Source: Candidatus Wallbacteria bacterium | GTDB lineage: Bacteria > Muiribacteriota > UBA9980 | NCBI GenBank assembly: GCA_041441465.1 | Contig: JASDSY010000010.1 | Location: 105,883 to 169,882 of the forward strand | Direction: 5' to 3' | DNA length: 64,000 bases | In this document: piece by piece, positions 41,385-64,000 of the stretch | Position numbering within the stretch: the stretch's first letter is position 1 | Layout of the letters: every line of letters begins with the position of its first letter | Program-made: the position numbers and the translations under genes | Notes under the pieces: model-generated | Told to the model about the DNA's origin: nothing | The model's input: only the letters and a program-made list of their open reading frames with translations | Database searches by the model: none

Positions 41385-43550
41385 CTAATTATTGTTTTTA
41401 TTCTGTGTTTTAACGGTGTTGCTGCCGCCCATGCTTCTGGATTCAACCTTTTTATTCGAAAGTTTAAATTCGAGAACGATAGCGCGCCTGTTGCCGGGCG
41501 ACTTGGAAGCGCCAGTCGACGGCCTGTTCGGATTGTAAAACGGCGAAAAATCATCCACAAAAAAAGCTACATTATAGGTTTTAGAAGCGTCAGGGTTTCT
41601 GAAAATATAATCAGGATAAGTAAAAACATTATTGTCTTTATTTTCGTATTTCAAATTATCGACTCCGGTAGGGTCCTGAATAATCCATGTGCAGTAGCGT
41701 AAAAGCGAATCATCGTTCTTCTCGAACCCGTCCATCGGAGTTGAAATGCCATACTGGCCGATTTTATTTCCCTGGTTTTTCACTTCAACGTTACGGTTAA
41801 TGTTATCATAAGCGGCCATATCGAATATCAGCCTCACGTCTTCGTTTATCTGAAGCGCCTCGGTATATTCCTTATAACGGTCTGGATCATTTGCTTCGAG
41901 CCATTTCATTGTTTCGGTCGAATTGTCATATTTAAAATGCCACAAATCCCCGAGGTCCTTATTATACGGCGAATAAGGCGCTGAGCATAAATCGGAATTA
42001 GGCAGAGTGAATATAGTAGTTTTATTAGTTTCGGTATTTGTCATCGAAAGCATCGGATTTGGCGATATATCGTCATAAGGAACGATCGCCATGCATTCCA
42101 TCTGGCCGGCCGCCATATAATTCGGCGTGGTGCCGTAACGGGTCTTTATATCGTTAATAAATACATTGGAACCGGCAGCAAGATAAGGCAGCCTGAAATT
42201 CATCGAAGTATCGCATGCGCTGACGATTATTCTTGTGCAGCATTCGGTAACGCCGGAGCTTGATTGTATGCTGTGGCTTTCCTTAACCGCGTTATCGGTG
42301 AACGCTATGCCGGATCTGGAAGCGTAATGCGGATTCATTATCGACGAACCCGGACGGAGTTTTTCCATGGCGTTTTCAAGATCGGTTATCGGCCCCTCGA
42401 ATACTATGACGGAGCACAACTTGCTCTTATCGGCAACAGGCGAATTCGTCGGATGACCGTCGGCTACAACCTGTCCGTTATTAACTTCAGCAGAAACAAT
42501 CTGATATTTCCAGTTAGGCATATCGTCAGCCCATATCGGCCCGACCCATTCAAACGCGCCGTCCGGAGTAGCCTTGCCTTTTGAAGTATTAAGAGCGTTT
42601 TCATCCACACGTTCGCCGGTAATCCTTTCGATTTTATTCTGGCTGCTGCTGGCATCAGGCAATTTCCCATAATAAGTCTTAAAAACTTCAACATAAAAGG
42701 CAATATTAGGGCTGCCTTTCTGGTTATATTTATGAAGTACGCCATTTTTCTTGGCGCTTGCGAAATAATTATTATCCTTAACGGCAACCCTTATTATGTC
42801 AGGGTTTTCATCCGCCTTAAAATTCCAGGCTTTCGCTTTTTTATTAAAGTTAGATATCTTATCGTTGGTTGTCGCGAGCAATACCGGAGTATCGAAATAG
42901 ATTTCATGCGGCGGTATATTATCGACGGTCAGAACCTGGCCCAATATTTTTTGGACAAAAAACCAGTGAGGCTTGCCGCCAGCATCGTATGTGAATATAG
43001 CGGTAACGCCGACACGGCATGATTCATTCGGATCCGTAGCGTAATTAAAAGTGTATTTAATGTTGCTGCCGCCGTTTGGAGGGGTAAGGGTCAGCATTGT
43101 TTTATCCCAGTTTAATATGGTATAATGAACTGAATGCAAAGCAATATTACTGTAATTGCCGGCACCGATAGATTTTTTAAAAACATCTGTTTCCATTTGA
43201 TTAATATAGCTGGAGCTGTTAAATTGAAACTCGCATTCCTGGCCCTGTAATACATTAAAAACATTCCCGCTTTGCTCGGAATTTGTTATTTTCATATAAT
43301 TACTGACTTCAGGGTAAGTATACGACGATGGATTACCTGGGAAATCCATAGTTCCAAGTTTTCCGCTGGTCAAACTGTCGTCTTTTATAAACTCCGACAG
43401 CTGCTCATCGAGCTTCGTTTCGTCCGCCGCGTAAAGATTATTACGCAGAGCGATGCCTGAACATGCCAGCACCAGTAAACAAATAACAGAACATATTAAA
43501 AATTTTCCGCTAAAAAATGAACTGCCGTTACAATTAAATTTCTTTTTCAT
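41385..43550 (-). CDS. large hypothetical secreted protein
   Basis: 721 aa; signal-peptide-like N-terminus with Cys; no family recognised; directly upstream of aor on the same strand. Confidence 0.5.
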   Translation of the reverse strand: MKKKFNCNGSSFFSGKFLICSVICLLVLACSGIALRNNLYAADETKLDEQLSEFIKDDSLTSGKLGTMDFPGNPSSYTYPEVSNYMKITNSEQSGNVFNVLQGQECEFQFNSSSYINQMETDVFKKSIGAGNYSNIALHSVHYTILNWDKTMLTLTPPNGGSNIKYTFNYATDPNESCRVGVTAIFTYDAGGKPHWFFVQKILGQVLTVDNIPPHEIYFDTPVLLATTNDKISNFNKKAKAWNFKADENPDIIRVAVKDNNYFASAKKNGVLHKYNQKGSPNIAFYVEVFKTYYGKLPDASSSQNKIERITGERVDENALNTSKGKATPDGAFEWVGPIWADDMPNWKYQIVSAEVNNGQVVADGHPTNSPVADKSKLCSVIVFEGPITDLENAMEKLRPGSSIMNPHYASRSGIAFTDNAVKESHSIQSSSGVTECCTRIIVSACDTSMNFRLPYLAAGSNVFINDIKTRYGTTPNYMAAGQMECMAIVPYDDISPNPMLSMTNTETNKTTIFTLPNSDLCSAPYSPYNKDLGDLWHFKYDNSTETMKWLEANDPDRYKEYTEALQINEDVRLIFDMAAYDNINRNVEVKNQGNKIGQYGISTPMDGFEKNDDSLLRYCTWIIQDPTGVDNLKYENKDNNVFTYPDYIFRNPDASKTYNVAFFVDDFSPFYNPNRPSTGASKSPGNRRAIVLEFKLSNKKVESRSMGGSNTVKTQNKNNN

Positions 43551-43801: not shown

Positions 43802-44773
43802 ATGGAAAATTTTTTTAAATACTTAAGAATTTCAATTACCGACAAATGCAACCTGAAATGCAAGTATTGCGATACCGGCAAATATTGCAAGCTGCCGCCT
43901 GCGTCGATTCTTTCATTTGAAAACATATGCCGTATCGTCCGCTGCGCGGCCGAATGCGGTGCTGAAAAGATAAGAATAACCGGCGGCGAGCCTTTAATGC
44001 GCAATAATTTTCTTGAGTTATTTAAAATGATAAAGTCTATAAGCGGAATAAATGAACTTACATTCACAACGAACGGCATATTGCTCGACAGATGGGCCGA
44101 TAAATTATTCGATATCGGCATCCGCCGTTTTAACGTGTCGCTTGACACGCTCTGCCGTGAAAATTTTAAAAAAATTAACGGGTCCGACAATTTGGACAGA
44201 GTTCTCAAGAACCTTGAAGATTGTAAAAAAATAGGCTTCGCGCCTATTAAAATCAACACGGTATTACTGAAAGGCATAAACGACAGCGAGATTCCGGAAC
44301 TCATAAAATACGCCGCAAATAATGGTTTTTTAATAAGGTTTATAGAACTGATGGATATTTCACATTCAAAAGGCTTTTTTGAAAAACATTTTATAAGCTC
44401 CGACTGTGTTATAAAAAAATTAAAAGAATCTTACGTTATCGAAAAAATAACAAATCATGACGGCGCCCTCGAAGGCCCTGCTGTTTATTATAAAATAAAA
44501 GGCGAAGGCATCGACGGCAGGATAGGTTTTATAACGCCCGTAAGCCATCATTTCTGCAAACATTGCAACAGGCTGCGCCTTACGGTTGACGGCAAACTCA
44601 AACCGTGCCTTTTAAGAGCTGACGAAATAAATCTTAATGAGCTTTTAAATAATAATATAAGCGATAACGAGTTAAAGGAAATTTTTAAAAATACATTTAA
44701 AGACAAAAATAAAGCTTCAGGAAAACATTTATTTAACAATAATTTTAGAAATATGTCTGAAATAGGCGGTTAA
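43802..44773 (+). CDS. moaA: GTP 3',8-cyclase MoaA (molybdopterin/tungstopterin cofactor biosynthesis)
   Basis: 323 aa; radical SAM CxxxCxxC (CNLKCKYC) and C-terminal Cys triad context. Confidence 0.75.
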   Translation: MENFFKYLRISITDKCNLKCKYCDTGKYCKLPPASILSFENICRIVRCAAECGAEKIRITGGEPLMRNNFLELFKMIKSISGINELTFTTNGILLDRWADKLFDIGIRRFNVSLDTLCRENFKKINGSDNLDRVLKNLEDCKKIGFAPIKINTVLLKGINDSEIPELIKYAANNGFLIRFIELMDISHSKGFFEKHFISSDCVIKKLKESYVIEKITNHDGALEGPAVYYKIKGEGIDGRIGFITPVSHHFCKHCNRLRLTVDGKLKPCLLRADEINLNELLNNNISDNELKEIFKNTFKDKNKASGKHLFNNNFRNMSEIGG

Positions 44774-50676: not shown

Positions 50677-53600
50677 TTATTCAGTCTTAAACTGCCACTT
50701 TAACGGCATCAATGACTGCCCTGTCGTGTTCTTTATTCCCGCATTAAGGGTTACTTCATAGCGGGTGCCGTAATTTAAAGGCTGCGCCGGCCTGAATATT
50801 AATTTTTTCATGCGCTGATTGTACAGGATTTTGCCATTAACGGTGCCTTCAGCGCCTGTTACTATAAAATTAACCCCGTTCAGCGTAGCTACATCGGCAT
50901 CCTGGCTGAACACTACAGTAATAGTGCTGTTCAACTTTATCTTTTCGGAGTTTTTATTAGGATAGATCGCCGTAATATAAAACTGCGAAGCGCTCTGTTC
51001 ATTGCCGTATGAAGTCGAAAGCTGAGGCTCGAAAGTATTGAATGTAGTCAGCTCTTTCTGTTTTCTAGCTTTTTGGATATTTTCCGGCGTTATTACTTCG
51101 TTTCTGTTGTTCTTTATAAGTCCTTCCTTTTGAGCCTGAATTATCGGATTATCCGAATTATCAGCCATTATTTCATCCACTGCCATGCCGTTTATTGTTC
51201 CTTTAGGGCCGGACGCCGGATTGGTTTCTGAAGCCGCCGCGACCATGTTGCCGTTAGCTAATCCGGAGGCAGGTTTCACAAAAGCCGCCGGTGACGCATC
51301 GGACGCTGTGGCGACGTTATCAGGAACCGCGCGGGCCACCATATTTTTTAAAGCCGCATTTTCAGCCTGTGCGTCAGGTCCGAATGCCTCATACTCGCCT
51401 GCCTGAGGCGCCGCAGAAACTGACTGGACCTGAGGCTGATCATTATTAGCCGCAACCGGTTTTACAAAATTACCGGAATCATTATTGCCTGTTCCGGCTA
51501 AAACTATGTTTTGACCCGAGGCCGTGACATTTACCAAATCCTGTTTTAAAATCGGCCCGGCCGGATTTTCTGAAAGATATGGAGCTTTAATACCAGGCTG
51601 TGCCTGAACCGCCGCAATATTAGCATCTGTTTTGGCTTGATAAGCATTTCCGGCCTGGACCGCTATATCATCTTTCAACGGCGATTCAATTAAACTGTCA
51701 ATAGAATTATTACCGGCGTATAATCCGGCCGGCTGGACTGCCGCTGAAACCTGCGCTGCCTGCGGCCTGCCGTCAATGCGGCCGCCGTTCATCGAAATCG
51801 GTTTTTTATACTGCATCGGAGTATTTTTTAACTGATCAGGCTGGCTGTTATCGCCATCCTGGATTTTTTTATCCTCGCTGCCGTATTGCTCCACTTTTTC
51901 AAGATTTATCAAATCGGCGTCATCGCCTATTAATTTAGGCTGCTGAGGTTTTTGCATCGTTTCAACCGGATTATCCGAATTAATCGAGTTTTCTTTTGAA
52001 GGCGGTTCCGACATCTGTACAAAAACCGATTTAGGGTTCCTGTATTCCTGTGCCTGCATTATACCGTCTTCTCTTGTATATTTCACATTCTGGCCGTTAA
52101 ATTTTGTCGCGACATCCTGTCTTATTTTTTCAGCTGCAGGCGATCTCTTTTCTTCTTCACTTCCTGCAATCGGAATCTTCGGAGTCATTTCTTCGGGACG
52201 CATCATTTCACGGTCAGGGTTAGGCGTAATATTATTTCCCATACCGTTGGCATAGGCATCAGCTACAGGTTCGCTGTTCGAAGGCAAAGCATCGATAGCT
52301 GCACCCATTTTAGCCTGCGCTTTGGAATCATCGGATAAAAATTTAGCTATCTGGTCCTTTAACGTTTCGGCCGCCGCGTCATCAATAACGTCCGTCTGGT
52401 CAACCGTATCTTTTATTCTTTTCGCATTCACTTTTCCATAAGCGCCCTTATCCGAAACTGAATGACGCAGTGCCATTTCATCCGGCGGAGTATCGTCAAC
52501 TATTTCAGAATTATCTATAGTGTCTTTTACGCTTTTAGCCGTGACTTTACCGTATGCGCCCTTGTCAGAAGCAGAAAGTCTGTCTTTGACATCTGCGATA
52601 GGAACTATTTGCCTTAATTTTGTTTCTTTAGGATAATTAACATTCATCTGCTGACCAATTTCACTCATAGCTTCGGCGCTTGCCGCGGTCTTCTCGCCCA
52701 TCGGCGCGATGGCCTCCGAACCCATAGCTTTTTGAACCTTAATCTGCATGCTGGCGTCTTCGCCGGCCGCTACCGATGTCACGTTTCCCTTAGTCATACC
52801 GGCAGTTTTCAAACCGCTTCCCGTTTTAAATTTCCACATCTGCGGTTCTGAAAGAGTCATGCCTTCCTTATCTTCGACAGTTTTTGCAATTGTCACATTA
52901 TAAAGCGTATTCGGCGACAATGTATTCCATGGGGTAAACGATGCCGTCGTCGTGGCGTCATCGTATGTAACCCGCCCCTGGACAGCTCTTGTTCCATCCG
53001 TCACGAAAAATGAAAAAGGCGTTATTGTACTGCCTTTCATCCTGCGGTCGAAAGTAACCGAAATCACAGGCGATAATTCTATATCGAACCCGTCTCTATC
53101 GGGTTTGAGACCTATAATCGCCGGACCTCTTCCCGACCAGCTTTTGCCTACCAGAAATTTCCATTTCTTTTCACGCTGCATATAATTACTCGATAAATCC
53201 ATTACGCCTTTTGTAACAACCGCGGTATAAGCCGCGCCCTCTTCGAGAGGCTGACGCGGAGTGAATATAGCTTTTTTCTGGGCTGAATCGTAATAAATTT
53301 TTCCGGGCACTTCCGCTTCGCTGTTTAAGACCCTGAACGTAAACGAGTTGAGTGAAAAATCTTTTATAGCTTCATCAAACGATGCGGTTATCTGCGAAGA
53401 GGCAGGCACATTGTCAGAATTATCGCGAGGCGCGACACTAATAACATTCGGGCCGGTAATATCTTTACTCATGCTCTTCGGTTCATCGAACATTTTTTTC
53501 ATGTTAGCGGAAGCGATTTGTTTCAATGTCGAAAACTCCCAGCTGTTTGGCTGGCCAAGTCTGCTGCCCTGTATGTCCTCGATTTTTTCCGAAAGCGTAA

Positions 53601-54954
53601 CCCTGTATTTACGGTTGACCTTAAGCGCCCCCGAAGGCGTATAGACCGCGGTTTTGGTTTTCTGGTTATATTCGACTTTGCCGAATATATATTCATCGCC
53701 GTCCTGCAGAGAAAAATTGAAAATATTAAATGAGGCTGGATTCATTTTTTTATTAAATTTAACTATTATTTTTTCGTCGAGATTTATCATATCAGCGCCG
53801 GGAGCAGGAAACATCTCGATAATTTCAAACTTGCCTGCTTTTCCGTCACCGGCAATTTCATCTTCCGCGACGACAGGTTCATCTTCGTCCGCGCCTGATT
53901 CACCCTTGTCTTTTTTTATTTTAGCCATTAATTTCTGTATTTTAGGATTAGCCGAAAGGCGTTCTGAAGTTTTACTAACCGCGGGTTCGTCTTCTTCAGC
54001 AGCGTTTTCATTTTCAACTGCCGCTGCAATCTTTCCTCTGGCAGCAGGATTTTTTATCTTCGAAGAAGTTTTCGCACTTTTTTTAACGCTTTCAGCGCCA
54101 CCGTCGGCCGAAATCACAGTCCCGGCAATACGGGCACTGCCGGTTTTAAAAGTATAAACATAATCACGTGACATTTTATTTTTAGAGGCATCGCATATTT
54201 CAGAGGATATTTTTACTTCATGAACCGCGTTAGGTTTCAAATTATTAAGCGGTGAAAATATAGCTTTATTTACGTCATCAAAATAGCGGATAGCGCCCGC
54301 AATTTTTTCGCGGCCGCATTTCACTGTAATAGTATTTTCATTTATAGAAGCCTCATACATTTTCTTGTTGAATATGACTTCGAGTTTAGTGTCAACCGGC
54401 ACGCCTGATGCCGAAACAGTCGGCGACACATCGGCTACGACCGGCGGATTGGAATCGACTTTTTTTACGGTCCTGAATTTCCACACTTTATCGGATGTCA
54501 TTGTCTTGCCGTTAAGGTCCCTTATGGTCCTGCTTATCGTTAAGAAATATCCGTGATCGGGCTGCAAATTTTCAAGAGGCGATACGGTCACTTTCATAAG
54601 TTCGCTGTTATAACGCACGGTAGTCGATATATCAGAAACTCCGTCATTCAACGTAACAGTAAACTCATTAATATCTTCATCCTGCATTTTTTTATTGAAT
54701 ATCGCCATGATTTTAACATCGAGCGCTACATCTTCGTCGTTATCTTCAGGCAGCGTTCTCACGACAGAAGGCGCCGCACCGCCTTCATTCGTTTCTTTTT
54801 CAGCCTGCTTTGCCTTTGCGGCAGCAAAAGCGGCACCGGTATTTAAAATATAAAAAACGAAAAAAACGGCTATAATCAAAAACACGCAGCCTGATGGCCG
54901 AAGTTTTTTTCTAACCGATGTACCGCCTTTTTCTTTTAATAATTCTGATCTCAT
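50677..54954 (-). CDS. giant secreted surface protein with multiple Ig-like (SbsA/Big-type) repeats
   Basis: 1425 aa; signal peptide; at least six recurrent repeat units of about 90-100 aa; long low-complexity Ala/Gln/Asn-rich central region. Confidence 0.6.
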   Translation of the reverse strand: MRSELLKEKGGTSVRKKLRPSGCVFLIIAVFFVFYILNTGAAFAAAKAKQAEKETNEGGAAPSVVRTLPEDNDEDVALDVKIMAIFNKKMQDEDINEFTVTLNDGVSDISTTVRYNSELMKVTVSPLENLQPDHGYFLTISRTIRDLNGKTMTSDKVWKFRTVKKVDSNPPVVADVSPTVSASGVPVDTKLEVIFNKKMYEASINENTITVKCGREKIAGAIRYFDDVNKAIFSPLNNLKPNAVHEVKISSEICDASKNKMSRDYVYTFKTGSARIAGTVISADGGAESVKKSAKTSSKIKNPAARGKIAAAVENENAAEEDEPAVSKTSERLSANPKIQKLMAKIKKDKGESGADEDEPVVAEDEIAGDGKAGKFEIIEMFPAPGADMINLDEKIIVKFNKKMNPASFNIFNFSLQDGDEYIFGKVEYNQKTKTAVYTPSGALKVNRKYRVTLSEKIEDIQGSRLGQPNSWEFSTLKQIASANMKKMFDEPKSMSKDITGPNVISVAPRDNSDNVPASSQITASFDEAIKDFSLNSFTFRVLNSEAEVPGKIYYDSAQKKAIFTPRQPLEEGAAYTAVVTKGVMDLSSNYMQREKKWKFLVGKSWSGRGPAIIGLKPDRDGFDIELSPVISVTFDRRMKGSTITPFSFFVTDGTRAVQGRVTYDDATTTASFTPWNTLSPNTLYNVTIAKTVEDKEGMTLSEPQMWKFKTGSGLKTAGMTKGNVTSVAAGEDASMQIKVQKAMGSEAIAPMGEKTAASAEAMSEIGQQMNVNYPKETKLRQIVPIADVKDRLSASDKGAYGKVTAKSVKDTIDNSEIVDDTPPDEMALRHSVSDKGAYGKVNAKRIKDTVDQTDVIDDAAAETLKDQIAKFLSDDSKAQAKMGAAIDALPSNSEPVADAYANGMGNNITPNPDREMMRPEEMTPKIPIAGSEEEKRSPAAEKIRQDVATKFNGQNVKYTREDGIMQAQEYRNPKSVFVQMSEPPSKENSINSDNPVETMQKPQQPKLIGDDADLINLEKVEQYGSEDKKIQDGDNSQPDQLKNTPMQYKKPISMNGGRIDGRPQAAQVSAAVQPAGLYAGNNSIDSLIESPLKDDIAVQAGNAYQAKTDANIAAVQAQPGIKAPYLSENPAGPILKQDLVNVTASGQNIVLAGTGNNDSGNFVKPVAANNDQPQVQSVSAAPQAGEYEAFGPDAQAENAALKNMVARAVPDNVATASDASPAAFVKPASGLANGNMVAAASETNPASGPKGTINGMAVDEIMADNSDNPIIQAQKEGLIKNNRNEVITPENIQKARKQKELTTFNTFEPQLSTSYGNEQSASQFYITAIYPNKNSEKIKLNSTITVVFSQDADVATLNGVNFIVTGAEGTVNGKILYNQRMKKLIFRPAQPLNYGTRYEVTLNAGIKNTTGQSLMPLKWQFKTE

Positions 54955-55203: not shown

Positions 55204-55264
55204 GGGCGGTAAGGAATAATTCCTTACCGCCCACTTATCAAAAAAACAATGACTCATTGTTTTT
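55204..55264 (-). terminator. tandem hairpins downstream of the 55302-55856 gene
   Basis: perfect 13-bp palindrome gggcggtaaggaa-taa-ttccttaccgccc (55204-55232) plus an A/T-flanked hairpin aacaatg/cattgtt (55241-55264). Confidence 0.5.
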
Positions 55265-55301: not shown

Positions 55302-55856
55302 TTAATAAAACCTAATAAACATGCTTACCGCGTATTCAGCAATTCTAAAAGCCAGGTAAGAAATAACAACGGTTGCGACTATATTTTTAGGATCCCTCAT
55401 ATCATGCGCCTCTGCGCAGGCCACATATTCAACGAGTATCGTCAGCACCTGCATCGGATAATACAGAATGCCAAAAAATCTTATTAATGAACGGAAAAGC
55501 GCCAGCGGAAAAGAAATCAAGCCGAAAGCCACGGCTATATTTTGCGGAGTGCCGCGGCCGCCGAACGTCTGGCCTACAAAGTAAAAAGCAAGCATATTTA
55601 TGATCACGTTCAAATTAAAAGTTAAAAGAACGCCGGGAAGAATTTTATATGGTGAAATATAAACAAACTTATTATTGAGGTTAAAAGAATTAAACGCGCC
55701 GATAAAGCCCAGGGCTATGATGATATTTGCCAGGATAACTGAAGCCAGCGAATCAGCCAGAGCGTTTTCATCGACGGCTTTTTTTATGGCGCGCGGCAGT
55801 GATATGAACATTTCGATAAACCGGCCTATAAATTTATTTATATCAAAGTTTCCCAT
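55302..55856 (-). CDS. Yip1-like polytopic membrane protein (tentative)
   Basis: 184 aa with about 5 hydrophobic helices. Confidence 0.4.
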   Translation of the reverse strand: MGNFDINKFIGRFIEMFISLPRAIKKAVDENALADSLASVILANIIIALGFIGAFNSFNLNNKFVYISPYKILPGVLLTFNLNVIINMLAFYFVGQTFGGRGTPQNIAVAFGLISFPLALFRSLIRFFGILYYPMQVLTILVEYVACAEAHDMRDPKNIVATVVISYLAFRIAEYAVSMFIRFY

Positions 55857-55990
55857 GGGGCCTCCAGAATAAGTAATAAAAAAATATATCAGGTATATAC
55901 TTTAAATTTTAATAATTAAACTCCTGAGATAAAAACAAAAAAGTTATTTATGAATTTAGTTCAAATATTTTTAAAGTTAAGGCATTATTT

Positions 55991-57016
55991 TTAGCTGACG
56001 CTTTTAGAAATGCCTGTCAGCGTCTCAAACACGATTTTACGGAGTTTTGAGTTCTGGTAATTAATGCTGAAATCGACGGTGCCGTTTTCTACGAGGCTCT
56101 CCAATTCAACATTTTCACCAAGCAGTTCATTCAAGCGCTCTTCTGTAAAATCCTTAATAAAACTGAAATACTGCTCGCGCAGGCGTTTTTTTCTGATATC
56201 GGCGAATAATCCGCTTTTTTTCATATACCGGTCGTGCGCTTTTATTTTTTCGATAACTTCGCTCACGCCGTCGCCCGATATGCAGTTTGTTTTGACAATA
56301 GGAACGCTCCATTCGGAAACGATTCCGTCTTCACGGTTCTTATCTTCGCGAAGTTTCAGCATGTAATTAATTTCAGTGTAAACTTTTTCGACGCCGGTCC
56401 GGTCGCTTTTATTAATAACAAATATATCACCGATTTCAAAAAGTCCGGCTTTTATGGCCTGCACTTCATCGCCGAGTCCCGGCACTTCAGTCACAATAGT
56501 AGTATCTGTCATTTTAGCGACTTCGATCTCCAGTTGACCGACACCGACCGTTTCGACAATAATATAATTAAATCCGAATAATTCATAAATTCTCAAAACA
56601 TAAGGAATGCAGCGTGACATTCCACCCAGAGCGCCGCGCGTGCCCATGCTTCGAAAATAAAGATTAGGCGAAGTGAAATTAGACATTCTCACACGGTCGC
56701 CGAGTATCGCGCCGCCGGTGAACGGGCTTGAAGGATCGAAAGCTATAATTGCGATTTTCGCTTCCGGTTCTTTATTTAAAATCTCGCGCGATATTTTATC
56801 GACAAGCGTGCTTTTTCCAGCGCCCGGCGGCCCGGTAATGCCTATTATAGCCTGGTCAGGCGCGAGATAACTGGCAGGATTGCCGTTTTTATTCCTGAAA
56901 TGTTCTTCGAGTTTTGTCAATATCTCAAAGCCGTCATCGTCAAAATTTTCAACCGCCGTTATAAGTTTCGCCAGAGCGCGGTGATTGCCGTTCAAAAACT
57001 CATTATATATGTCCAT
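55991..57016 (-). CDS. meaB: MeaB/ArgK-type G-protein (methylmalonyl-CoA mutase-associated GTPase family)
   Basis: 341 aa; P-loop GITGPPGAGKST, VETVGVGQ and NKSD GTPase motifs. Confidence 0.7.
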   Translation of the reverse strand: MDIYNEFLNGNHRALAKLITAVENFDDDGFEILTKLEEHFRNKNGNPASYLAPDQAIIGITGPPGAGKSTLVDKISREILNKEPEAKIAIIAFDPSSPFTGGAILGDRVRMSNFTSPNLYFRSMGTRGALGGMSRCIPYVLRIYELFGFNYIIVETVGVGQLEIEVAKMTDTTIVTEVPGLGDEVQAIKAGLFEIGDIFVINKSDRTGVEKVYTEINYMLKLREDKNREDGIVSEWSVPIVKTNCISGDGVSEVIEKIKAHDRYMKKSGLFADIRKKRLREQYFSFIKDFTEERLNELLGENVELESLVENGTVDFSINYQNSKLRKIVFETLTGISKSVS

Positions 57017-57102
57017 TGTATCTGAAACTTCCTTTATTATTTTCTGTTGATGCCTTATCGATAATTATCATGCCAATTATTATTTTAATTTATTTCATGC
57101 AA

Positions 57103-57366
57103 TTATTTTCCGAATTTATAATGCTTTCTTACCTTTTCAATTACTGTCCATTCGCAGCTAAGCCCTTCGGGAAATACAACATAATCTCCGGCAGCGAATT
57201 CAACATTTTCTTTACCGGTTTTTATTTTTACTTTGCCGTCAAGAATAAGGCATATTTCCTGTTCGTCATAATGCCATGGAAATGTTTTAGGTTCGCATTC
57301 CCATATCGGCTCTTTTTTCATTTGATCAATTTCAGACTGTGAAGGTTTTTTTACTATTATCCGCAT
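57103..57366 (-). CDS. small single-domain cupin protein (cupin_3/DUF861-like)
   Basis: 87 aa; WECEP...DEQEICLILDGKVKI...GDYVVFPEG pattern. Confidence 0.55.
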   Translation of the reverse strand: MRIIVKKPSQSEIDQMKKEPIWECEPKTFPWHYDEQEICLILDGKVKIKTGKENVEFAAGDYVVFPEGLSCEWTVIEKVRKHYKFGK

Positions 57367-57760: not shown

Positions 57761-59602
57761 ATGTATGAAGACCCGCATAAAATCCTGCAGCAGCATTTCG
57801 GCTATTCTAAATTCAGGGATGGCCAGCAGGAAATAATTTCGGCGATTATTTCAGGGCGCGACGCTCTGGGAATAATGCCGACAGGCGCAGGAAAATCACT
57901 ATGTTTTCAAATTCCTGCGCTTATGTTCAAAGGAACCGTCATTGTTATTTCACCGCTTATTTCTCTTATGAAAGACCAGGTTGAAGCTCTCCGGCAGGCC
58001 GGGTTGCCGGCGGCATTCATTAACAGCACGCTCACGGGACGCGAACGCAAAGAAATAGAAAATGACGCTCTGGAAGGCAAGTACAAGTTAATTTACATGG
58101 CGCCGGAGCGGCTTGAAAATCCTGAATTTTTGAAATTCTTAAACGATATTTCGGTTTCAATGGTAACAGTCGATGAGGCGCACTGCGTATCGCAATGGGG
58201 CCATGATTTCCGCCCGAGTTATCTCAAAATACCCAATATGATTGAAATGTTAGCCCAAAAACCTATCATTTCAGCATTTACGGCAACCGCGACGCCTATA
58301 GTAAAAAATGATATCATGCAGCTGCTTAAGTTAAATAATCCCGTCACGGTAGTAACAGGTTTTGACCGAAAAAATTTATATTTCGAAGTGAACAAGCCTT
58401 CAAGCAAATCTGAATTCACGCTCGACTACGTCCGGAAGAATTCCGGCAAAAGCGGCATAATTTACTGCATTACGCGTAAATTAGTCGAAAGCGTATGCGA
58501 CATTTTAAATTCCAACGGCATCCCCGCCGTACGGTATCACGCAGGATTATCTCAGAAAGAAAGAAGCGAGGCGCAGGAAAAGTTCATTTTTGAAGACGCC
58601 GGAATAATCGTCGCCACTAATGCTTTCGGCATGGGTATCGATAAATCAAACGTCAGGTTCGTATTGCACTATAACATGCCTAAAAACATAGAAAGTTATT
58701 ATCAGGAAGCCGGCAGGGCCGGGCGCGACGGCGAAAAAGCAGAGTGCATATTGCTCTTTTCAGGCCAGGACATCATCATGAATAAATTTTTAATTGAAAA
58801 CAGCGACAGGGACAAAGAAAAAAGCGGAGGCGAGCGTTCCGATAAGAGCGGCGAACTGCGAAAACTTTCTCAAATGGTAGATTATTGTTCCACGACATCA
58901 TGCATAAGACGCTACGTACTGAATTATTTCGGCGAAAATCATACTTATGAAAGCTGCGGCAACTGCGGAAGCTGTTTAAGCGCCCCGGCGGAACTTACCG
59001 ACATGACCGAATGCTGCCGGAAAATACTTTCGTGCATAAAACTTATGGGCGAGCGTTTCGGCCGCACTTTCGTATCAGAGGTTTTGCGCGGCTCAAATCC
59101 CGAACGCTCCAGTGAATTCGGATTTAATAGACTTTCGGTATACGGCGCTTTAAAAGAATATTCACAGGATTTTATAAAAGACACCATCTCGGCGCTTGCG
59201 GATGCCGGATATATAAAAGTTGACAGCAGCCAGTATCAAACGCTTTCATTATCATTTAAAGCCCTTAACTCATTAAACACAGGCGAAAAAATATTAATAA
59301 AAGCCGCTGAAATTAAAAGTAAATCCAAAGCAAAGGCCAAAACTAAAACCGCGCCTCAAAGTGCCGGAGACAGCAATTTATTTGACAGGTTAAGGGCATT
59401 GCGACGCGATCTGGCTCTTAAGCAGCGAGTACCGCCTTATCTGATATTTTCAGATGCCGCATTAAACAGCATGTGCCAATTACTGCCTTCGACCGATGAA
59501 GATTTTTTAGAAGTCAACGGCGTGGGCAGGCGGAAGCTTGAACAATACGGCGAGATTTTTATGGATGAAATTAAGCAGTTTCAGGATTCAAAAAGAGGTT
59601 AG
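57761..59602 (+). CDS. recQ: ATP-dependent DNA helicase RecQ
   Basis: 613 aa; FGYSKFRDGQQEII start, Walker A MPTGAGKS, DEAH box VDEAHCVSQWGHDFRP, Zn-binding Cys cluster, C-terminal HRDC-like region. Confidence 0.85.
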   Translation: MYEDPHKILQQHFGYSKFRDGQQEIISAIISGRDALGIMPTGAGKSLCFQIPALMFKGTVIVISPLISLMKDQVEALRQAGLPAAFINSTLTGRERKEIENDALEGKYKLIYMAPERLENPEFLKFLNDISVSMVTVDEAHCVSQWGHDFRPSYLKIPNMIEMLAQKPIISAFTATATPIVKNDIMQLLKLNNPVTVVTGFDRKNLYFEVNKPSSKSEFTLDYVRKNSGKSGIIYCITRKLVESVCDILNSNGIPAVRYHAGLSQKERSEAQEKFIFEDAGIIVATNAFGMGIDKSNVRFVLHYNMPKNIESYYQEAGRAGRDGEKAECILLFSGQDIIMNKFLIENSDRDKEKSGGERSDKSGELRKLSQMVDYCSTTSCIRRYVLNYFGENHTYESCGNCGSCLSAPAELTDMTECCRKILSCIKLMGERFGRTFVSEVLRGSNPERSSEFGFNRLSVYGALKEYSQDFIKDTISALADAGYIKVDSSQYQTLSLSFKALNSLNTGEKILIKAAEIKSKSKAKAKTKTAPQSAGDSNLFDRLRALRRDLALKQRVPPYLIFSDAALNSMCQLLPSTDEDFLEVNGVGRRKLEQYGEIFMDEIKQFQDSKRG

Positions 59603-59610
59603 TGTGCCAG

Positions 59611-59730
59611 ATAATTTTTTCAGGGGACGCTGCTAAAAATCCATCCGGGATTTTTAACCGCTCGGTGCTCCGGCGCCTCTCACCCATCCATGGGTTCCGG
59701 CGCCTTCGCAACACCCCTGCAAAAATTTCT
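59611..59730 (+). repeat. structured intergenic element, copy B (copy A at 5445-5520)
   Basis: same blocks as copy A; closing helix cagggg/cccctg; extra nested hairpin ggcgcc-[cccat-cc-atggg]-ggcgcc inserted relative to copy A; begins 9 nt after the recQ stop. Confidence 0.5.
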
Positions 59731-60075
59731 GTCACACTGTTAAATATTCCGAAAAATAATTCACTTATCATCACTATTTCCACCTAAAGAATAAACTTTG
59801 TCTATCGTTATAATTTTTATCCCTAAAACGAACTTGTGAAAAATGTGGGTTCGCAATTGTTCCAGATTTAGAATGATAAATAAATTTATGCTAATATGAA
59901 GGATTAAGCAAAAGCCCCGCTGCCCGTTCTATTTCAATACTCTCTTATTCTCATCTCGCCGGGCGTTCGCAGAGCTTCGAAAAATAACATTAAATTATCA
60001 TAAACAATATAAACGCTACCATATCAACATTTTTTAAAAATCGATATTTTTTTATTTCAAATTTTAAAAAAATTG

Positions 60076-60084
60076 TGATATAAT
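60076..60084 (+). promoter_or_regulatory. extended -10 promoter element TGaTATAAT upstream of the PLD-SNF2 gene
   Basis: tgatataat 25 nt upstream of the ATG at 60109; RBS aaggag. Confidence 0.35.
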
Positions 60085-60108
60085 TTTTTTCAAGAAAAAG
60101 GAGCCTAT

Positions 60109-63100
60109 ATGCCTAAAATCTATGACAATATAGAAAATCAACTAACACGCGGATTAAACGAAACGCTTGAATTATCCAATAGAGCGGACTTTTGCGTTGG
60201 TTACTTCAATCTTAGAGGCTGGAAAGAAGTCGCAGAAAAGATTGAAAAACTTACCGGTTCTGAAATTCTTGAAGGAAAAAATGATGTTCACCGAATTTGT
60301 CGATTATTGGTCGGCATGCAAAAATTACCCGTTGATATACTACGTGAACATTTCGGCCAGGACGAAAATTACATAATTGACAACGCAGAAGCGGTTAAAA
60401 TCAGGAAACGATTAGCGCAAGAATTCAAAGATCAATTAACGATAGGCACACCTTCCGAATCTGATGAAAAAGCGTTACGTCTTCTAAGCAAACAAATGAA
60501 AGAAAACAAAGTAACCGTTAAGTTACACTTGCGTTATACGCTTCATGCTAAACTATATCTGGCTTACAGCGACGATAAACGCGTTCCCATAGTTGGTTTC
60601 CTTGGAAGCAGTAATCTTACGTTGGCCGGACTTGCCAGACAGGGTGAGCTAAATATTGATGTTATGGATCAGGACGCCGCCGGAAAGCTTGCCAAATGGT
60701 TTGACGACCGCTGGAGTGATCGGTGGTGTCTCGATATTACACAGGAACTTATTGAAATTATCGATAACAGTTGGGCCGCTGATAGGATTGTATCTCCGTA
60801 TCATATTTATCTGAAAATAGCATATCATCTTTCACGAGAAGCACGTGCAGGCATTAATGAATTTAAATTGCCTAAAGTTTTTCAAAGAGAATTACTTGAA
60901 TTTCAACAAAAAGCCGTTCTTGTTGCGGCACATCACCTTCATAAAAGGGGCGGCGTATTAATTGGCGATGTGGTTGGACTTGGAAAAACAATAACAGCTA
61001 CCGCGCTTGCAAAATTATTCGAAGATGATTTTTTTCTTGAAACGCTTATAATTTGTCCCAAAAATCTCGTTCCGATGTGGGAAGAATATGCTCACAAATA
61101 TCAAATTAGGGCTAAAATAATATCACAAAGTAAAGTTCAGAGTCTGCTTCCTAACATGAGACGATACAGACTTGTAATTATAGATGAAAGCCATAATCTT
61201 AGAAATGACGAAGGAAGTCGCTATCGCGCAATCAAATCATACCTTGAAGAAAATGAAAGCAAGGTTATTTTGCTATCTGCAACGCCATATAACAAATCAT
61301 ACCTTGATTTATCAAATCAACTGCGTCTTTTCATATCAGATGACAAAGATTTAGGAATAAGTCCTGAAAGATATATTGATGAAATTGGAGGACAGATTCA
61401 ATTTGGCGCAAAGCACACTGAAACGTTTATACGAAGCATTAAAGCATTTGAGAAAAGTCATTTTTCAGATGATTGGCGCGAACTTATGCGTTTATATTTA
61501 GTTAGACGTACAAGAAGCTTTATAAAAAACAACTACGCCGCAACCGATCCAGAAAATAATAGAAAGTATTTAACTTTCGCCGATGGCACTAAATCATATT
61601 TTCCCGACAGGCTTCCTCGAAGGGTTGAATATGCTTTTAATCCAGATGATCCCAAAGATCAATATGCCAAATTATATTCGCCTGAAATAGTTGACATAGT
61701 TAATTCACTAGAATTACCAAGATATGGATTGGGTAACTTTTTAACTCCCAATCCGATTATAAAACCTGACAAAAACGAAGAAGTAATAATTGAAAATCTT
61801 TCGCGAGCCGGAAAACGATTAATGGGTTTTTGTCGTACAAATCTTTTTAAAAGACTTGAAAGCAGCGGATATTCATTTCTTGTTTCACTTTGCCGTCATA
61901 TTTTACGCAATTATATTTTTATATTCGCGCTTCAGAATAAACTGCCAATTCCAATTGGAAATAATATATCGCAAAATTTAGATGAATTTCTCGAAGACAG
62001 CGATACTGACAACGACACCAGAGAAGAAAGGCAATTTAATTTTATACTTGACGAAAATGAATATTTAAAAAAAGCGGAAAATGTATATTACTCTATGTTA
62101 AATGAAAAGAACCGTTATGACTGGATAAAAAGTGAACTATTTATTTCATCACTTCAAAAAAAGCTAATTGACGATAGCCGTGAAATAATTAAAATATTAA
62201 AAAAGGGCTATAATTGGGCCCCTGAAGAAGACAGACAATTAAACGCGCTTCATCAACTTATTGCTAATACTCATGGCAATGAAAAGGTCCTTGTTTTCAC
62301 TCAGTTTGCCGATACCGCAAATTATCTTACAGACAATTTGAAAAAAAGAGGCGTCAAAAAAATCGAATGTGTAACCGGCGATTGTGAAAATCCAACACAT
62401 TTAGCGCATCGTTTCAGCCCAAGAAGCAATGGCAATAATGAAATAGCCAACACTTCCGACGAATTAAAAGTGCTTATTACAACTGATGTATTGAGCGAAG
62501 GGCAAAACTTGCAAGACGGCCACATAATTTTAAATTACGACCTTCCGTGGGCAATTATTCGTTTAATACAACGTGCGGGGCGTGTTGACCGAATAGGCCA
62601 GAAATCAGATAAAATAATTTGCTATTCATTTTTTCCAGAAGACGGCATCGAGCAAATAATTAACCTCAGAAGCAGGCTAAGAACACGCATTGAACAAAAC
62701 GCCGAAGTTGTCGGCTCGGATGAAACATTTTTCGACGGCGATCCTGTCAATCTTGAAGATTTATATAACGAACGTTCAGGAATTTTAGACGATGATGATG
62801 ACGACGGCGAAGTTGACCTTGCATCTTACGCTTATCAAATCTGGAAAAACGCTACCGACGCCGATCCATCGTTAAACAAAAAAATACCGGATTTGCCGAA
62901 TGTTATTTATTCAACTAAACAGAACAACAATAAGCCTGAAACCGAAGGTGTTATTTTATATACGCGAACTACGGATGAAAATGATGTATTGACATGGATT
63001 GATAAAAATGGAAAAATCATAACACAATCACAGCTGACTATTTTAAAAGCCGCTCAATGTCCTCCGGATGTGAAGGCTTTTTATAAAATAGAAAATCACC

Positions 63101-63474
63101 ACGACCTTGTAAAAAAAGGAATTGACTACATTCGCGAAGAAGAAAAAAATACTGGAACGTCATTGGGCAAAAAGACGGGTGTAAAGTATAGAGTTTATAT
63201 GCGTCTGGACAGATATTGCAAAGAAAACGAAGATACGCTATTCGTAACCGAGGAACTAAAGAAAGCCATTAATGACATTTATAAATTTCCGATGAAAGAA
63301 TTTGCGCGTGATACACTTAACAGACAATTGAAAGCCGGAATTTCTGATGAAATGCTTGCCGGGCTCGTTGTTTCACTGCGCGAAGATGATAAGCTGGTAA
63401 TAGTTAATGAAGATGAGATGCCAAACAGGCTTCCTCAAATTATTTGTTCACTTGGACTTAAAAATGGAGAATGA
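60109..63474 (+). CDS. PLD-like (HKD-type) nuclease domain fused to SNF2/DEXH-family helicase
   Basis: 1121 aa; N-terminal HKD-like segment HAKLYLAYSDD...GSSNLT; helicase motif I GDVVGLGKTITA, motif II LVIIDESHNLRN, helicase C motifs TDVLSEGQNLQD and QRAGRVDRIGQ. Confidence 0.8.
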   Translation: MPKIYDNIENQLTRGLNETLELSNRADFCVGYFNLRGWKEVAEKIEKLTGSEILEGKNDVHRICRLLVGMQKLPVDILREHFGQDENYIIDNAEAVKIRKRLAQEFKDQLTIGTPSESDEKALRLLSKQMKENKVTVKLHLRYTLHAKLYLAYSDDKRVPIVGFLGSSNLTLAGLARQGELNIDVMDQDAAGKLAKWFDDRWSDRWCLDITQELIEIIDNSWAADRIVSPYHIYLKIAYHLSREARAGINEFKLPKVFQRELLEFQQKAVLVAAHHLHKRGGVLIGDVVGLGKTITATALAKLFEDDFFLETLIICPKNLVPMWEEYAHKYQIRAKIISQSKVQSLLPNMRRYRLVIIDESHNLRNDEGSRYRAIKSYLEENESKVILLSATPYNKSYLDLSNQLRLFISDDKDLGISPERYIDEIGGQIQFGAKHTETFIRSIKAFEKSHFSDDWRELMRLYLVRRTRSFIKNNYAATDPENNRKYLTFADGTKSYFPDRLPRRVEYAFNPDDPKDQYAKLYSPEIVDIVNSLELPRYGLGNFLTPNPIIKPDKNEEVIIENLSRAGKRLMGFCRTNLFKRLESSGYSFLVSLCRHILRNYIFIFALQNKLPIPIGNNISQNLDEFLEDSDTDNDTREERQFNFILDENEYLKKAENVYYSMLNEKNRYDWIKSELFISSLQKKLIDDSREIIKILKKGYNWAPEEDRQLNALHQLIANTHGNEKVLVFTQFADTANYLTDNLKKRGVKKIECVTGDCENPTHLAHRFSPRSNGNNEIANTSDELKVLITTDVLSEGQNLQDGHIILNYDLPWAIIRLIQRAGRVDRIGQKSDKIICYSFFPEDGIEQIINLRSRLRTRIEQNAEVVGSDETFFDGDPVNLEDLYNERSGILDDDDDDGEVDLASYAYQIWKNATDADPSLNKKIPDLPNVIYSTKQNNNKPETEGVILYTRTTDENDVLTWIDKNGKIITQSQLTILKAAQCPPDVKAFYKIENHHDLVKKGIDYIREEEKNTGTSLGKKTGVKYRVYMRLDRYCKENEDTLFVTEELKKAINDIYKFPMKEFARDTLNRQLKAGISDEMLAGLVVSLREDDKLVIVNEDEMPNRLPQIICSLGLKNGE

Positions 63475-63476
63475 TA

Positions 63477-64000
63477 ATGGCAATTTCTAAAAATGAATTT
63501 TCACAATATATAAAAAAATTTGATTTTCGCGGATTATTCAACGAAATGGGATGGAATAACGACGATAAAAAATTTGCAATATCTTTACCCAAGAAAAATA
63601 CGTTTGTTTTATATACTGTAGGTGAAAAAAGCGGATTTAAAATATTCGTATGCAGCCCCACATCGGAAGGGAAAATCCCGGACTTTTCAATAAGAAGAAA
63701 AATCGAAACTGAAGTTACAAAACTTTTTCAAGAGCATCTTATTATTTTTCACGACACTAAAAAGCATGAGCAAGTGTGGCAATTGGTTGTCAGACAATCA
63801 GGCCAGCCGGCGAAAGTTACTGAAACACGCTACAACGTCAAACAGGACCCGGAACTTTTATATCAAAGAGCATCAGGCATTTTCTTCGAACTCGATGAAG
63901 AGGAAAAAATAACTATTGTTGATGTTACAAAAAGAGTCGCCGAAAATTTCAATCAAAATAATGAAAAAGTAACAAAACAATTTTATGACAAATTTAAAAA
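63477..64000 (+). CDS. 5'-partial ORF running off the window end; function unassigned
   Basis: ATG 3 nt after the helicase stop with ggag RBS; open for at least 174 codons (MAISKNEFSQYIKKFDFRGLFNEMGWNN...) with no stop before position 64000. Confidence 0.55.
   Translation, partial: MAISKNEFSQYIKKFDFRGLFNEMGWNNDDKKFAISLPKKNTFVLYTVGEKSGFKIFVCSPTSEGKIPDFSIRRKIETEVTKLFQEHLIIFHDTKKHEQVWQLVVRQSGQPAKVTETRYNVKQDPELLYQRASGIFFELDEEEKITIVDVTKRVAENFNQNNEKVTKQFYDKFK

What the first reader, a model, noticed from the sequence alone, without database searches (positions are those of the whole stretch)
55991..57366. MeaB/ArgK-type GTPase with no mutase gene in view, next to a small cupin
Seen: a gene with GTPase motifs (GAGKST, VETVGVGQ, NKSD) lies downstream of an 87-aa single-domain cupin on the minus strand. 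No methylmalonyl-CoA mutase or other B12-dependent mutase gene lies within the surrounding 10 kb. Established knowledge: MeaB-family G-proteins act as chaperones for B12-dependent mutases and are normally adjacent to or fused with them. Inference: the client enzyme is elsewhere, or this GTPase serves a different partner.
Basis: partly seen in the sequence, partly recalled or inferred. Interest (0 to 1): 0.28.

Follow-up and report, generated by a model that had tools for sequence, protein, structure and literature searches.

The report
Ordinary MeaB chaperone; mutase lies nearby
This is a normal MeaB GTPase, the helper protein of vitamin-B12-dependent methylmalonyl-CoA mutase, in an uncultured Wallbacteria genome; its mutase sits 17 genes further along the same contig, just past the window, so the arrangement is ordinary.

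Summary
Window 55991-57016 (-) encodes a 341-aa MeaB/ArgK GTPase with every G-motif intact. An 87-aa single-domain Cupin_3 protein lies 86 bp upstream. No mutase is present anywhere in the 64-kb window.

The puzzle has a simple answer. The exact proteins are in NCBI as a Candidatus Wallbacteria MAG, on one 462,262-bp contig. Their accessions run in gene order: MEZ7890917 is MeaB, ..918 the cupin and ..919 RecQ. MEZ7890934 is a methylmalonyl-CoA mutase large subunit. Next to it is a B12-binding subunit fused to an epimerase-like domain. The client is therefore 17 genes away on the same strand, more than 9 kb past the window's end.

Orthologues of this MeaB (57-61% identity) lie 2-3 kb from the same kind of mutase in two related genomes, and more than 10 kb away in two others. 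Across other phyla, only 17 of 51 mutase loci had a MeaB gene within 10 kb. Published work already reports about 40% of meaB genes as unlinked to the mutase.

The cupin-MeaB adjacency is not conserved. The cupin's closest homologues (79% and 64% identity) have no MeaB neighbour, and no MeaB relative examined has a cupin neighbour.

Verdict: an already-annotated, ordinary MeaB, of low interest.

The parts
55991..57016 (-). meaB: 341-aa G3E-family GTPase, the chaperone of B12-dependent methylmalonyl-CoA mutase (NCBI MEZ7890917.1)
   Evidence: Pfam PF03308 at E 3e-73 and TIGR00750 at 280 bits, above the 240.75-bit cut-off. It aligns with solved MeaB/MMAA structures 6cum, 2www and 2qm7. The exact sequence is in NCBI, named MeaB, from Candidatus Wallbacteria.
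56807..56833 (-). G1 P-loop, GPPGAGKST (aa 62-70)
   Evidence: aligned to the P-loop of MMAA and 6cum
56684..56737 (-). Switch I region, DPSSPFTGGAILGDRVRM (aa 94-111)
   Evidence: nearly identical to the same stretch of MMAA (DPSSCTSGGSLLGDKTRM)
56534..56557 (-). Walker B / G3 / switch II, VETVGVGQ (aa 154-161)
56444..56473 (-). Switch III-type motif, GDEVQAIKAG (aa 182-191). In MeaB and MMAA this is the element that signals to the mutase.
   Evidence: it aligns with GDELQGIKRG of MMAA. The role of the motif comes from the literature (Lofgren et al. 2013, listed in the references of PMC9164220) and was not tested here.
56402..56413 (-). G4 guanine-specificity motif, NKSD (aa 202-205)
57103..57366 (-). 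87-aa stand-alone Cupin_3 protein (NCBI MEZ7890918.1). It is a neighbour of MeaB in this species only and is probably functionally unrelated.
   Evidence: PF05899 at E 1.3e-24. It is not EutQ: NF012001 scores 25.9 bits against a 193-bit cut-off. Its homologues at 79% and 64% identity have no MeaB next to them.
55302..55856 (-). 184-aa multi-pass membrane protein (weak Yip1-like match) downstream of meaB; hypothetical protein QMC67_04135, MEZ7890916.1
   Evidence: PF04893 at E 1.2e-4, below the cut-off. It is absent from the MeaB neighbourhoods of relatives.
55204..55232 (-). Terminator-like hairpin (13 bp stem, 8 GC pairs) after the membrane-protein gene. It may mark the end of a cupin-meaB-membrane protein transcription unit.
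   Evidence: Consensus scan only. No terminator-like site lies in either intergenic spacer (57017-57102, 55857-55990); the other minus-strand sites fall inside coding sequence.
57761..59602 (+). recQ (MEZ7890919.1), transcribed divergently from the cupin. It is the first of the genes separating meaB from the mutase.
   Evidence: DEAD, Helicase_C, RecQ_Zn_bind, RQC and HRDC domains
60109..63474 (+). PLD(HKD)-SNF2 helicase (MEZ7890920.1), the first gene of a restriction/defence cluster that continues beyond the window and lies between meaB and the mutase
   Evidence: Pfam and PADLOC 'HKD+Snf2' at E 8e-52. L019 extends the window and shows a Type IIG restriction-modification enzyme and a PDDEXK nuclease next.

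Best explanation
The gene is a canonical MeaB, the homodimeric G3E-family GTPase that chaperones adenosylcobalamin-dependent methylmalonyl-CoA mutase (MCM). Its client is a split MCM encoded on the same contig, 17 genes away on the same strand. The client consists of a 556-aa large subunit (MEZ7890934) followed by a small B12-binding subunit fused to a glyoxalase-type, methylmalonyl-CoA-epimerase-like domain. By analogy with M. extorquens MeaB and human MMAA, the protein would bind the mutase. It would use GTP binding and hydrolysis, relayed through switches I-III, to gate loading of adenosylcobalamin, to block or eject inactive cob(II)alamin, and to protect the radical enzyme. The pathway served is succinyl-CoA <-> methylmalonyl-CoA <-> propionyl-CoA. 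The upstream cupin and the downstream membrane protein are chance neighbours in this species. Shown here: family membership, intact motifs, the mutase on the same contig, and orthologues linked to the same mutase type in relatives. Inferred: the physical partnership and the GTP-gated mechanism.
For: - **Family:** PF03308 at E 3e-73 and the TIGR00750 equivalog at 280 bits, above the 240.75-bit cut-off. The protein aligns from end to end with MMAA 2www (E 6e-40), MeaB 2qm7, 6cum and the G-domain of IcmF.
- **Motifs:** the P-loop, switch I, switch II, switch III-type GDEVQAIKAG and NKSD are all intact.
- **Same contig:** NCBI accessions on one 462,262-bp contig run in gene order. MEZ7890916-925 match window and L019 genes one for one. 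MEZ7890934-939 match L016: mutase, DUF1848, CHASE kinase, thioredoxin, RND adaptor, RND permease. Locus tags QMC67_04135 (..916) and QMC67_04170 (..923) confirm there are no hidden genes in between.
- **Same organism:** L016 has a tetranucleotide correlation of 0.984 with the window and a GC fraction of 0.38.
- **B12 subunit:** the gene after the mutase carries B12-binding plus Glyoxalase domains.
- **Substrate:** the mutase has MCM-type residues MRQY87AGF, AR204GT and SGYH.
- **Relatives:** the MeaB orthologue P0005 (58% identity) lies 3 kb downstream of the mutase, the B12/epimerase fusion and transcarboxylase-type genes. P0003 (61%) lies 2.3 kb from the same pair.
- **Phylogeny:** the MeaB and mutase identities between these genomes are congruent, at 57-61% and 83-84% to the window.
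- **Separation is common:** 34 of 51 mutase loci from other phyla have no MeaB within 10 kb, and about 40% of meaB genes are unlinked in Haas 2009.
Against: - MeaB and the mutase are not in one operon here. At least 16 kb and 15 genes separate them, including a plus-strand recQ and a restriction/defence cluster.
- Seven intervening genes (MEZ7890926-932) could not be read. A second MeaB paralogue directly next to the mutase is therefore not formally excluded.
- The narrower MeaB equivalog NF006958 scores 202.9 bits, below its 329-bit cut-off.
- No biochemical data exist for this lineage.
Confidence: 0.9

Rival explanations
1. The GTPase has been recruited to a different partner. Together with the cupin and the downstream membrane protein it would form a new three-gene module, for example a metal or cofactor insertion or transport system.
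For: The three genes share a strand with short spacers of 86 and 134 bp. No terminator-like site lies in either spacer, and a strong hairpin follows the third gene. Haas 2009 mentions a MeaB homologue proposed to energise Fe uptake in Magnetospirillum.
Against: The adjacency is not conserved. The five MeaB-clade loci have DUF2225 and NUDIX neighbours and no cupin. The cupin's nearest homologues, at 79% and 64% identity, sit beside unrelated genes. No cupin homologue was found in 160 mutase loci, 43 of which contain MeaB. The protein's orthologues are linked to MCM. All mutase-signalling motifs are retained.
Confidence: 0.04
2. This is a redundant second MeaB paralogue. The working chaperone would sit next to the mutase among the unread genes MEZ7890926-932, and this copy would be drifting or specialised.
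For: In 20 of 20 genome loci where MeaB is near this type of mutase, it directly follows the B12 subunit. The seven genes next to the B12 subunit gene here were not seen.
Against: In the three related Wallbacteria-type loci (L007, L011, L017) the gene after the B12/epimerase fusion is not MeaB, and the only MeaB nearby is the orthologue of this one. Most genomes have a single meaB (Haas 2009). No second Wallbacteria-named MeaB appeared in the homologue search. The motifs are intact.
Confidence: 0.04
3. The protein is a 'LAO/AO transport system kinase' (ArgK), a kinase for amino-acid transport, as some databases still call it.
For: JGI names for homologues use this label, as do several PDB entries.
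Against: To my knowledge this is a historical misannotation of E. coli ArgK/YgfD, which lies in the sbm (MCM) operon. The family profile is the curated MeaB equivalog. No LAO transport genes lie nearby.
Confidence: 0.01

Closest known systems
MeaB of Methylobacterium extorquens (PDB 2qm7/4jyb) and human MMAA (PDB 2www, 8gju)
   Same: It has the same Pfam and TIGR family and a similar length (341 aa against 329-349 aa). The P-loop, switch I, switch II, switch III-type motif and NKxD are all conserved. It aligns over residues 3-305. A methylmalonyl-CoA mutase is present in the same genome.
   Different: The client here is a split, archaeal-type MCM: a 556-aa catalytic subunit and a separate B12 subunit fused to an epimerase-like domain. 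The known clients are the two-subunit MutAB or homodimeric MMUT, in which the B12 domain is part of the catalytic chain. The gene is 17 genes from the mutase rather than in its operon. No biochemistry exists.
E. coli ArgK/YgfD (PDB 2p67) in the sbm-ygfD-ygfG-ygfH operon
   Same: It is a stand-alone MeaB-family GTPase of a succinate-to-propionate pathway (E 3e-37).
   Different: In E. coli the gene is inside the mutase operon (from my own knowledge). Here it is separated by recQ, a restriction/defence cluster and other genes.
IcmF (fused isobutyryl-CoA mutase/MeaB, PDB 4xc6)
   Same: The G-domain is homologous (E 4e-31, residues 8-240).
   Different: The protein is not fused. NF045497 scores 138 bits against a 1500-bit cut-off. 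The genome's mutase has MCM-type Tyr/Arg residues rather than ICM-type residues (the residue rule is from my own knowledge).
Firmicutes/Fusobacteria-type operon: mutase large subunit - B12 small subunit - MeaB
   Same: It uses the same split mutase type (68-72% identity to the Wallbacteria mutase) and the same chaperone family (43-60% identity)..
   Different: In those genomes MeaB starts 421-585 bp after the mutase gene. In the window's genome it lies more than 16 kb away.
EutQ-like Cupin_3 proteins (PF05899)
   Same: The 87-aa neighbour matches Cupin_3 from end to end.
   Different: It is not EutQ: 25.9 bits against a 193-bit cut-off, and it lacks EutQ's N-terminal half. Homologues are stand-alone 86-89-aa proteins scattered across Wallbacteria, Bathyarchaeota, Marinimicrobia and Planctomycetota, in varied contexts.

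Membership tests
MeaB/ArgK subfamily of G3E (SIMIBI) GTPases | Scores above the curated cut-off of the family profile | tested here: met
   PF03308 scores 246.6 bits against a 23.1-bit cut-off. TIGR00750 scores 280 bits against 240.75. The narrower model NF006958 scores 202.9 against 329 and is not reached.
MeaB/ArgK subfamily of G3E (SIMIBI) GTPases | G1 P-loop GxxGxGKS[TS], G3 ExxGxGQ and G4 NKxD | tested here: met
   GPPGAGKST at 62-70, VETVGVGQ at 154-161 and NKSD at 202-205.
MeaB/ArgK subfamily of G3E (SIMIBI) GTPases | Switch I (DPSS..GG.LGD..RM) and the switch III-type motif (GDExQxIKxG) used to signal to the mutase | tested here: met
   DPSSPFTGGAILGDRVRM at 94-111 and GDEVQAIKAG at 182-191. 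Both align to the same motifs of MMAA and 6cum.
MeaB/ArgK subfamily of G3E (SIMIBI) GTPases | C-terminal helical extension used for dimerisation | tested here: inconclusive
   The sequence aligns with MMAA to residue 291 and with MeaB 2qm7 to residue 305. No structure was predicted, and dimerisation was not tested.
MeaB/ArgK subfamily of G3E (SIMIBI) GTPases | A B12-dependent acyl-CoA mutase encoded in the same genome | tested here: met
   MEZ7890934 is a 556-aa PF01642 protein with a B12-binding subunit next to it, on the same 462,262-bp contig.
MeaB/ArgK subfamily of G3E (SIMIBI) GTPases | Orthologues genomically linked to the mutase in related genomes | tested here: met
   L007 has the mutase 3 kb upstream and L011 has it 2.3 kb away. 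L012, L013 and L014 have none within 10 kb.
MeaB/ArgK subfamily of G3E (SIMIBI) GTPases | GTPase activity modulated by the mutase; gating of adenosylcobalamin loading | not testable with these tools
   This requires biochemistry.
IcmF-type fused mutase-GTPase | G-domain fused between B12-binding and mutase domains in one polypeptide of about 1100 aa | tested here: not met
   The ORF is 341 aa and bounded by stop codons. NF045497 scores 138 bits against a 1500-bit cut-off.
   None of the four other MeaB-clade relatives examined has it, and neither of the two closest cupin homologues has it. No cupin homologue lies within 160 mutase loci.
EutQ (ethanolamine-utilisation acetate kinase) | Scores above the NF012001 cut-off; full-length protein of about 230 aa | tested here: not met
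   25.9 bits against a 193-bit cut-off, and only 87 aa.
Methylmalonyl-CoA mutase (identity of the client) | Tyr and Arg that bind the substrate carboxylate (P. shermanii Y89/R207), and catalytic Tyr-His | tested here: met
   P0246 has MRQY87AGF, YIAR204GTY and SGY240H241. The residue rule is recalled from the literature and was not re-derived here. The best PDB hit by score is the split HcmA 4r3u. The fusion of the B12 subunit to an epimerase-like domain supports methylmalonyl-CoA as the substrate.

The most novel reading that the evidence does not exclude
In this Wallbacteria species, the cupin, MeaB and the Yip1-like membrane protein would form a newly assembled operon. MeaB would have gained a second role beyond chaperoning the mutase, for example coupling cobalamin or metal handling to a membrane component. 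This would be a lineage-specific innovation and would not show up in a conservation analysis.
Probability: 0.03. Interest if true: 0.45.

Novelty: already known. Interest (0 to 1): 0.07.

Why it matters
It matters little beyond correct annotation. The result shows that Candidatus Wallbacteria carry a complete-looking B12-dependent methylmalonyl-CoA mutase system: mutase, B12 subunit fused to an epimerase-like domain, and the MeaB chaperone. This is consistent with a succinate/propionate fermentation route. It also gives a caution for genome scans. The absence of a mutase within 10 kb of meaB is the majority condition for this split mutase type, at 34 of 51 loci, and is not a signal of a new function.

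Tried and rejected
- **Bridging the gap between L019 and L016.** L019 ends at window-equivalent 73,474 and L016 holds the mutase. A look-up of the NCBI mutase sequence P0246 found nothing on record. A look-up of the histidine kinase P0250 gave only contigs that end in or before the B12 subunit gene. The exact distance and genes MEZ7890926-932 therefore remain unread.
- **Collection scans.** I used the results only for linkage statistics.
- **RNA families.** An Rfam scan of the whole window, made to look for a cobalamin riboswitch near meaB, gave no hit at gathering thresholds.
- **Defence role.** A PADLOC scan gave only weak P-loop matches for MeaB and none for the cupin.
- **Literature.** A search for Wallbacteria plus methylmalonyl-CoA found only an unrelated review. 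A search for mutase specificity residues found nothing, so the Tyr/Arg rule rests on my own knowledge. The Lofgren 2013 paper (PMC3752380) is not held.
- **Rejected: a hidden mutase in the window.** The 721-aa ORF at 41385-43550 has no Pfam or NCBIfam match and no tblastn similarity to the mutase.

Full report
**1. Observation**

The minus-strand ORF at 55991-57016 encodes 341 aa. It matches Pfam MeaB (PF03308) at E 3.1e-73. It also matches the NCBIfam MeaB equivalog TIGR00750 at 280 bits, above the 240.75-bit cut-off.

| Motif | Sequence | Residues |
|---|---|---|
| P-loop | GPPGAGKST | 62-70 |
| Switch I | DPSSPFTGGAILGDRVRM | 94-111 |
| Switch II | VETVGVGQ | 154-161 |
| Switch III-type | GDEVQAIKAG | 182-191 |
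| G4 | NKSD | 202-205 |

The protein aligns nearly end to end with solved MeaB-family structures: 6cum (E 4e-49), human MMAA 2www (E 6e-40), M. extorquens MeaB 2qm7 (E 1e-37), E. coli ArgK 2p67 and the G-domain of IcmF.

An 87-aa ORF lies 86 bp upstream on the same strand, at 57103-57366. It is a single Cupin_3 domain (PF05899, E 1.3e-24). It falls far below the EutQ equivalog cut-off, at 25.9 bits against 193.

No mutase or B12-binding domain is present in the window. Pfam scans of all ORFs of at least 120 aa that are not overlapped by a longer annotated ORF on the other strand found none. A six-frame tblastn with the Wallbacteria mutase and B12 subunit gave nothing better than E 0.05.

**2. 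Source and location of the client**

The exact MeaB sequence is in NCBI as 'MAG: methylmalonyl Co-A mutase-associated GTPase MeaB [Candidatus Wallbacteria bacterium]', on a contig of 462,262 bp. Exact-sequence look-ups gave the accession of each neighbour:

| Accession | Product |
|---|---|
| MEZ7890916 | Yip1-like hypothetical protein, QMC67_04135 |
| ..917 | MeaB |
| ..918 | cupin |
| ..919 | RecQ |
| ..920 | PLD-SNF2 helicase |
| ..921 | Eco57I/Type IIG methylase |
| ..922 | PDDEXK nuclease |
| ..923 | hypothetical protein, QMC67_04170 |
| ..924 | SwmB-domain protein |
| ..925 | transglutaminase-like protein |
| ..934 | methylmalonyl-CoA mutase family protein, 556 aa |
| ..935 | DUF1848 |
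| ..936 | CHASE kinase |
| ..937 | thioredoxin |
| ..938 | RND adaptor |
| ..939 | RND permease |

Every one of these is reported on a contig of 462,262 bp. The order ..916-..925 matches the window plus its extension L019. L019 is 100% identical to window 59674-64000. The order ..934-..939 matches Logan contig L016. The locus-tag arithmetic, (04170-04135)/5 = 7, shows no hidden features in that stretch.

In L016 the gene after the mutase is a B12-binding domain fused to a glyoxalase/VOC domain. By order it must be ..933. The orientation implied by L016 puts the mutase and the B12 subunit on the window's minus strand, the same strand as meaB. L016 matches the window in composition, with a tetranucleotide correlation of 0.984 and a GC fraction of 0.38.

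The client therefore lies 17 protein-coding genes from meaB. The sequence I could read reaches window-equivalent 73,474 without meeting it. The distance is thus more than 16 kb plus seven unread genes, probably 20-30 kb.

**3. Is it the right client?**

The mutase P0246 has MRQY87AGF, YIAR204GTY and SGYH. These are the Tyr/Arg carboxylate-binding pair and the Tyr-His that characterise methylmalonyl-CoA mutase, as opposed to isobutyryl- or 2-hydroxyisobutyryl-CoA mutases. That residue rule comes from my own knowledge.

The best PDB hit by score is the split HcmA 4r3u, followed by human MMUT. I read this as reflecting the split architecture. Fusion of the B12 subunit to an epimerase-like domain points to methylmalonyl-CoA as the substrate.

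In the related locus L007, the same mutase and fusion pair sits beside a carboxyltransferase, a biotin carrier and an HMGL/PYC_OADA subunit. These are the enzymes of the methylmalonyl-CoA-to-propionyl-CoA step.

**4. Relatives**

The homologue search shows a tight clade of 14 proteins at 56-63% identity and 342-354 aa. It is followed by a drop to 47% or less for Clostridia-type MeaB of about 311 aa. I read the contexts of four of these relatives, plus the window's own species:

| Locus | MeaB protein | Context |
|---|---|---|
| L007 | P0005 | mutase, B12/epimerase, small ORF, DUF2225, MeaB, NUDIX |
| L011 | P0003 | MeaB, NUDIX, aldo-keto reductase, then B12/epimerase and mutase convergent, 2.3 kb away |
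| L012/L013 | P0009 | DUF2225, MeaB, NUDIX; no mutase within 10 kb |
| L014 | P0013 | DUF2225, MeaB, NUDIX; no mutase within 10 kb |

L011's mutase is 98% identical to P0129, which NCBI names as Wallbacteria. Identities between the window and these genomes are congruent, at 57-61% for MeaB and 83-84% for the mutase. The two genes therefore appear to have been inherited together. Loose and variable linkage is the norm within this lineage.

**5. How unusual is the separation in general?**

I used the mutase to pull 80 loci from species-representative genomes and 80 from metagenomes. I then looked for MeaB in each by tblastn.

- Among loci with at least 8 kb on both sides of the mutase, 10 of 36 genome loci and 7 of 15 metagenome loci contain MeaB.
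- Where MeaB is present in the genome loci, it follows the B12 subunit directly, 421-585 bp after the mutase.
- The remaining 34 of 51 loci have none within 10 kb. They include Ignavibacteria, Geobacteraceae, Chloroflexota and Anaeromyxobacter.

Haas et al. 2009 (PMC2770081) state that meaB genes cluster with MCM genes but that about 40% of homologues are not co-transcribed with one.

**6. The cupin**

Its closest homologues are stand-alone 86-89-aa proteins in Wallbacteria, Bathyarchaeota, Marinimicrobia and Planctomycetota.

- The 79%-identical Wallbacteria copy (P0262) sits between an SH3_3 protein and DUF4932/hyp genes in four assemblies.
- The 64%-identical copy (P0269) sits before a TPR protein and serS.
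- Neither has a MeaB neighbour.
- No relative of MeaB has a cupin neighbour.
- No homologue of this cupin occurs in the 160 mutase loci.

The pairing is specific to this species. Consensus scans show no terminator-like site in the cupin-meaB spacer or the meaB-membrane protein spacer, and a strong hairpin follows the membrane-protein gene (55204-55232). Co-transcription is therefore possible, but it is not evidence of shared function.

**7. Verdict**

This is an ordinary, already-annotated MeaB. Its mutase lies on the same contig just beyond the window.

The main caveat is that seven intervening genes were not read, so a second MeaB beside the mutase cannot be formally excluded. The three related loci argue against it. 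The mechanism is inferred by homology: a GTP-gated cofactor chaperone acting on MCM (PMC2770081; PMC10356863 for the human complex).

Interest is low. Novelty: already known.

Noticed in passing
L016 11603-12244 (partial); L007 6966-7790; L011 13304-14131 (-); L017 2112-2939: In the Wallbacteria clade the mutase's small B12-binding subunit is fused to a glyoxalase/VOC domain that resembles methylmalonyl-CoA epimerase, giving a protein of about 274 aa. None of the 58 B12-subunit hits in mutase loci from other phyla showed a single alignment spanning both domains. The fusion supports the substrate assignment. I did not check whether it has been described before.
   Followed up: partly
L007 8952-11533; L011 10001-11513; L012 8906-11604; L013 7064-9762; L014 8915-11551: In relatives of this MeaB the conserved neighbours are a DUF2225 protein directly upstream (3 of 4 genomes) and a NUDIX hydrolase directly downstream (4 of 4 genomes). 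Both are missing from the window's meaB locus. A recurring MeaB-NUDIX pair might have a functional meaning, for example in nucleotide or CoA housekeeping.
   Followed up: no
window 60109-63474 (+), continuing in L019 3804-8098: There is a restriction/defence cluster directly after recQ. It holds a PLD(HKD)-SNF2 helicase (PADLOC 'HKD+Snf2', E 8e-52), a 1086-aa Type IIG restriction-methyltransferase (E 2e-292) and a DUF1016/YhcG PDDEXK nuclease (PADLOC candidate PDC-S02). It lies between meaB and the mutase and may be an insertion that pushed them apart.
   Followed up: partly
window 59674-59702: Two Logan contigs from the same sample (L001 and L019, SRR24078314) end and begin here with a 29-bp overlap. 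Contigs from other runs break inside recQ (L002-L004, L006). This suggests strain-level variation at the edge of the defence cluster.
   Followed up: no
window 50677-54954 (-): A 1425-aa secreted-looking protein has six Big_5 bacterial Ig-like domains (E 3e-103) and a long low-complexity region rich in Ala, Gln and Asn in its C-terminal half. It is conserved in all assemblies of this species.
   Followed up: no
window 41385-43550 (-): A 721-aa ORF has no Pfam or NCBIfam match at all. It lies just upstream of an aldehyde:ferredoxin oxidoreductase gene (39500-41344) and near moaA (43802-44773).
   Followed up: no
L101 8557-9954 (-): In one assembly of the related Wallbacteria cupin locus, a group II intron reverse transcriptase (RVT_1 + GIIM) occupies the roughly 1.4-kb gap that follows the cupin gene in the other assemblies.
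   Followed up: no
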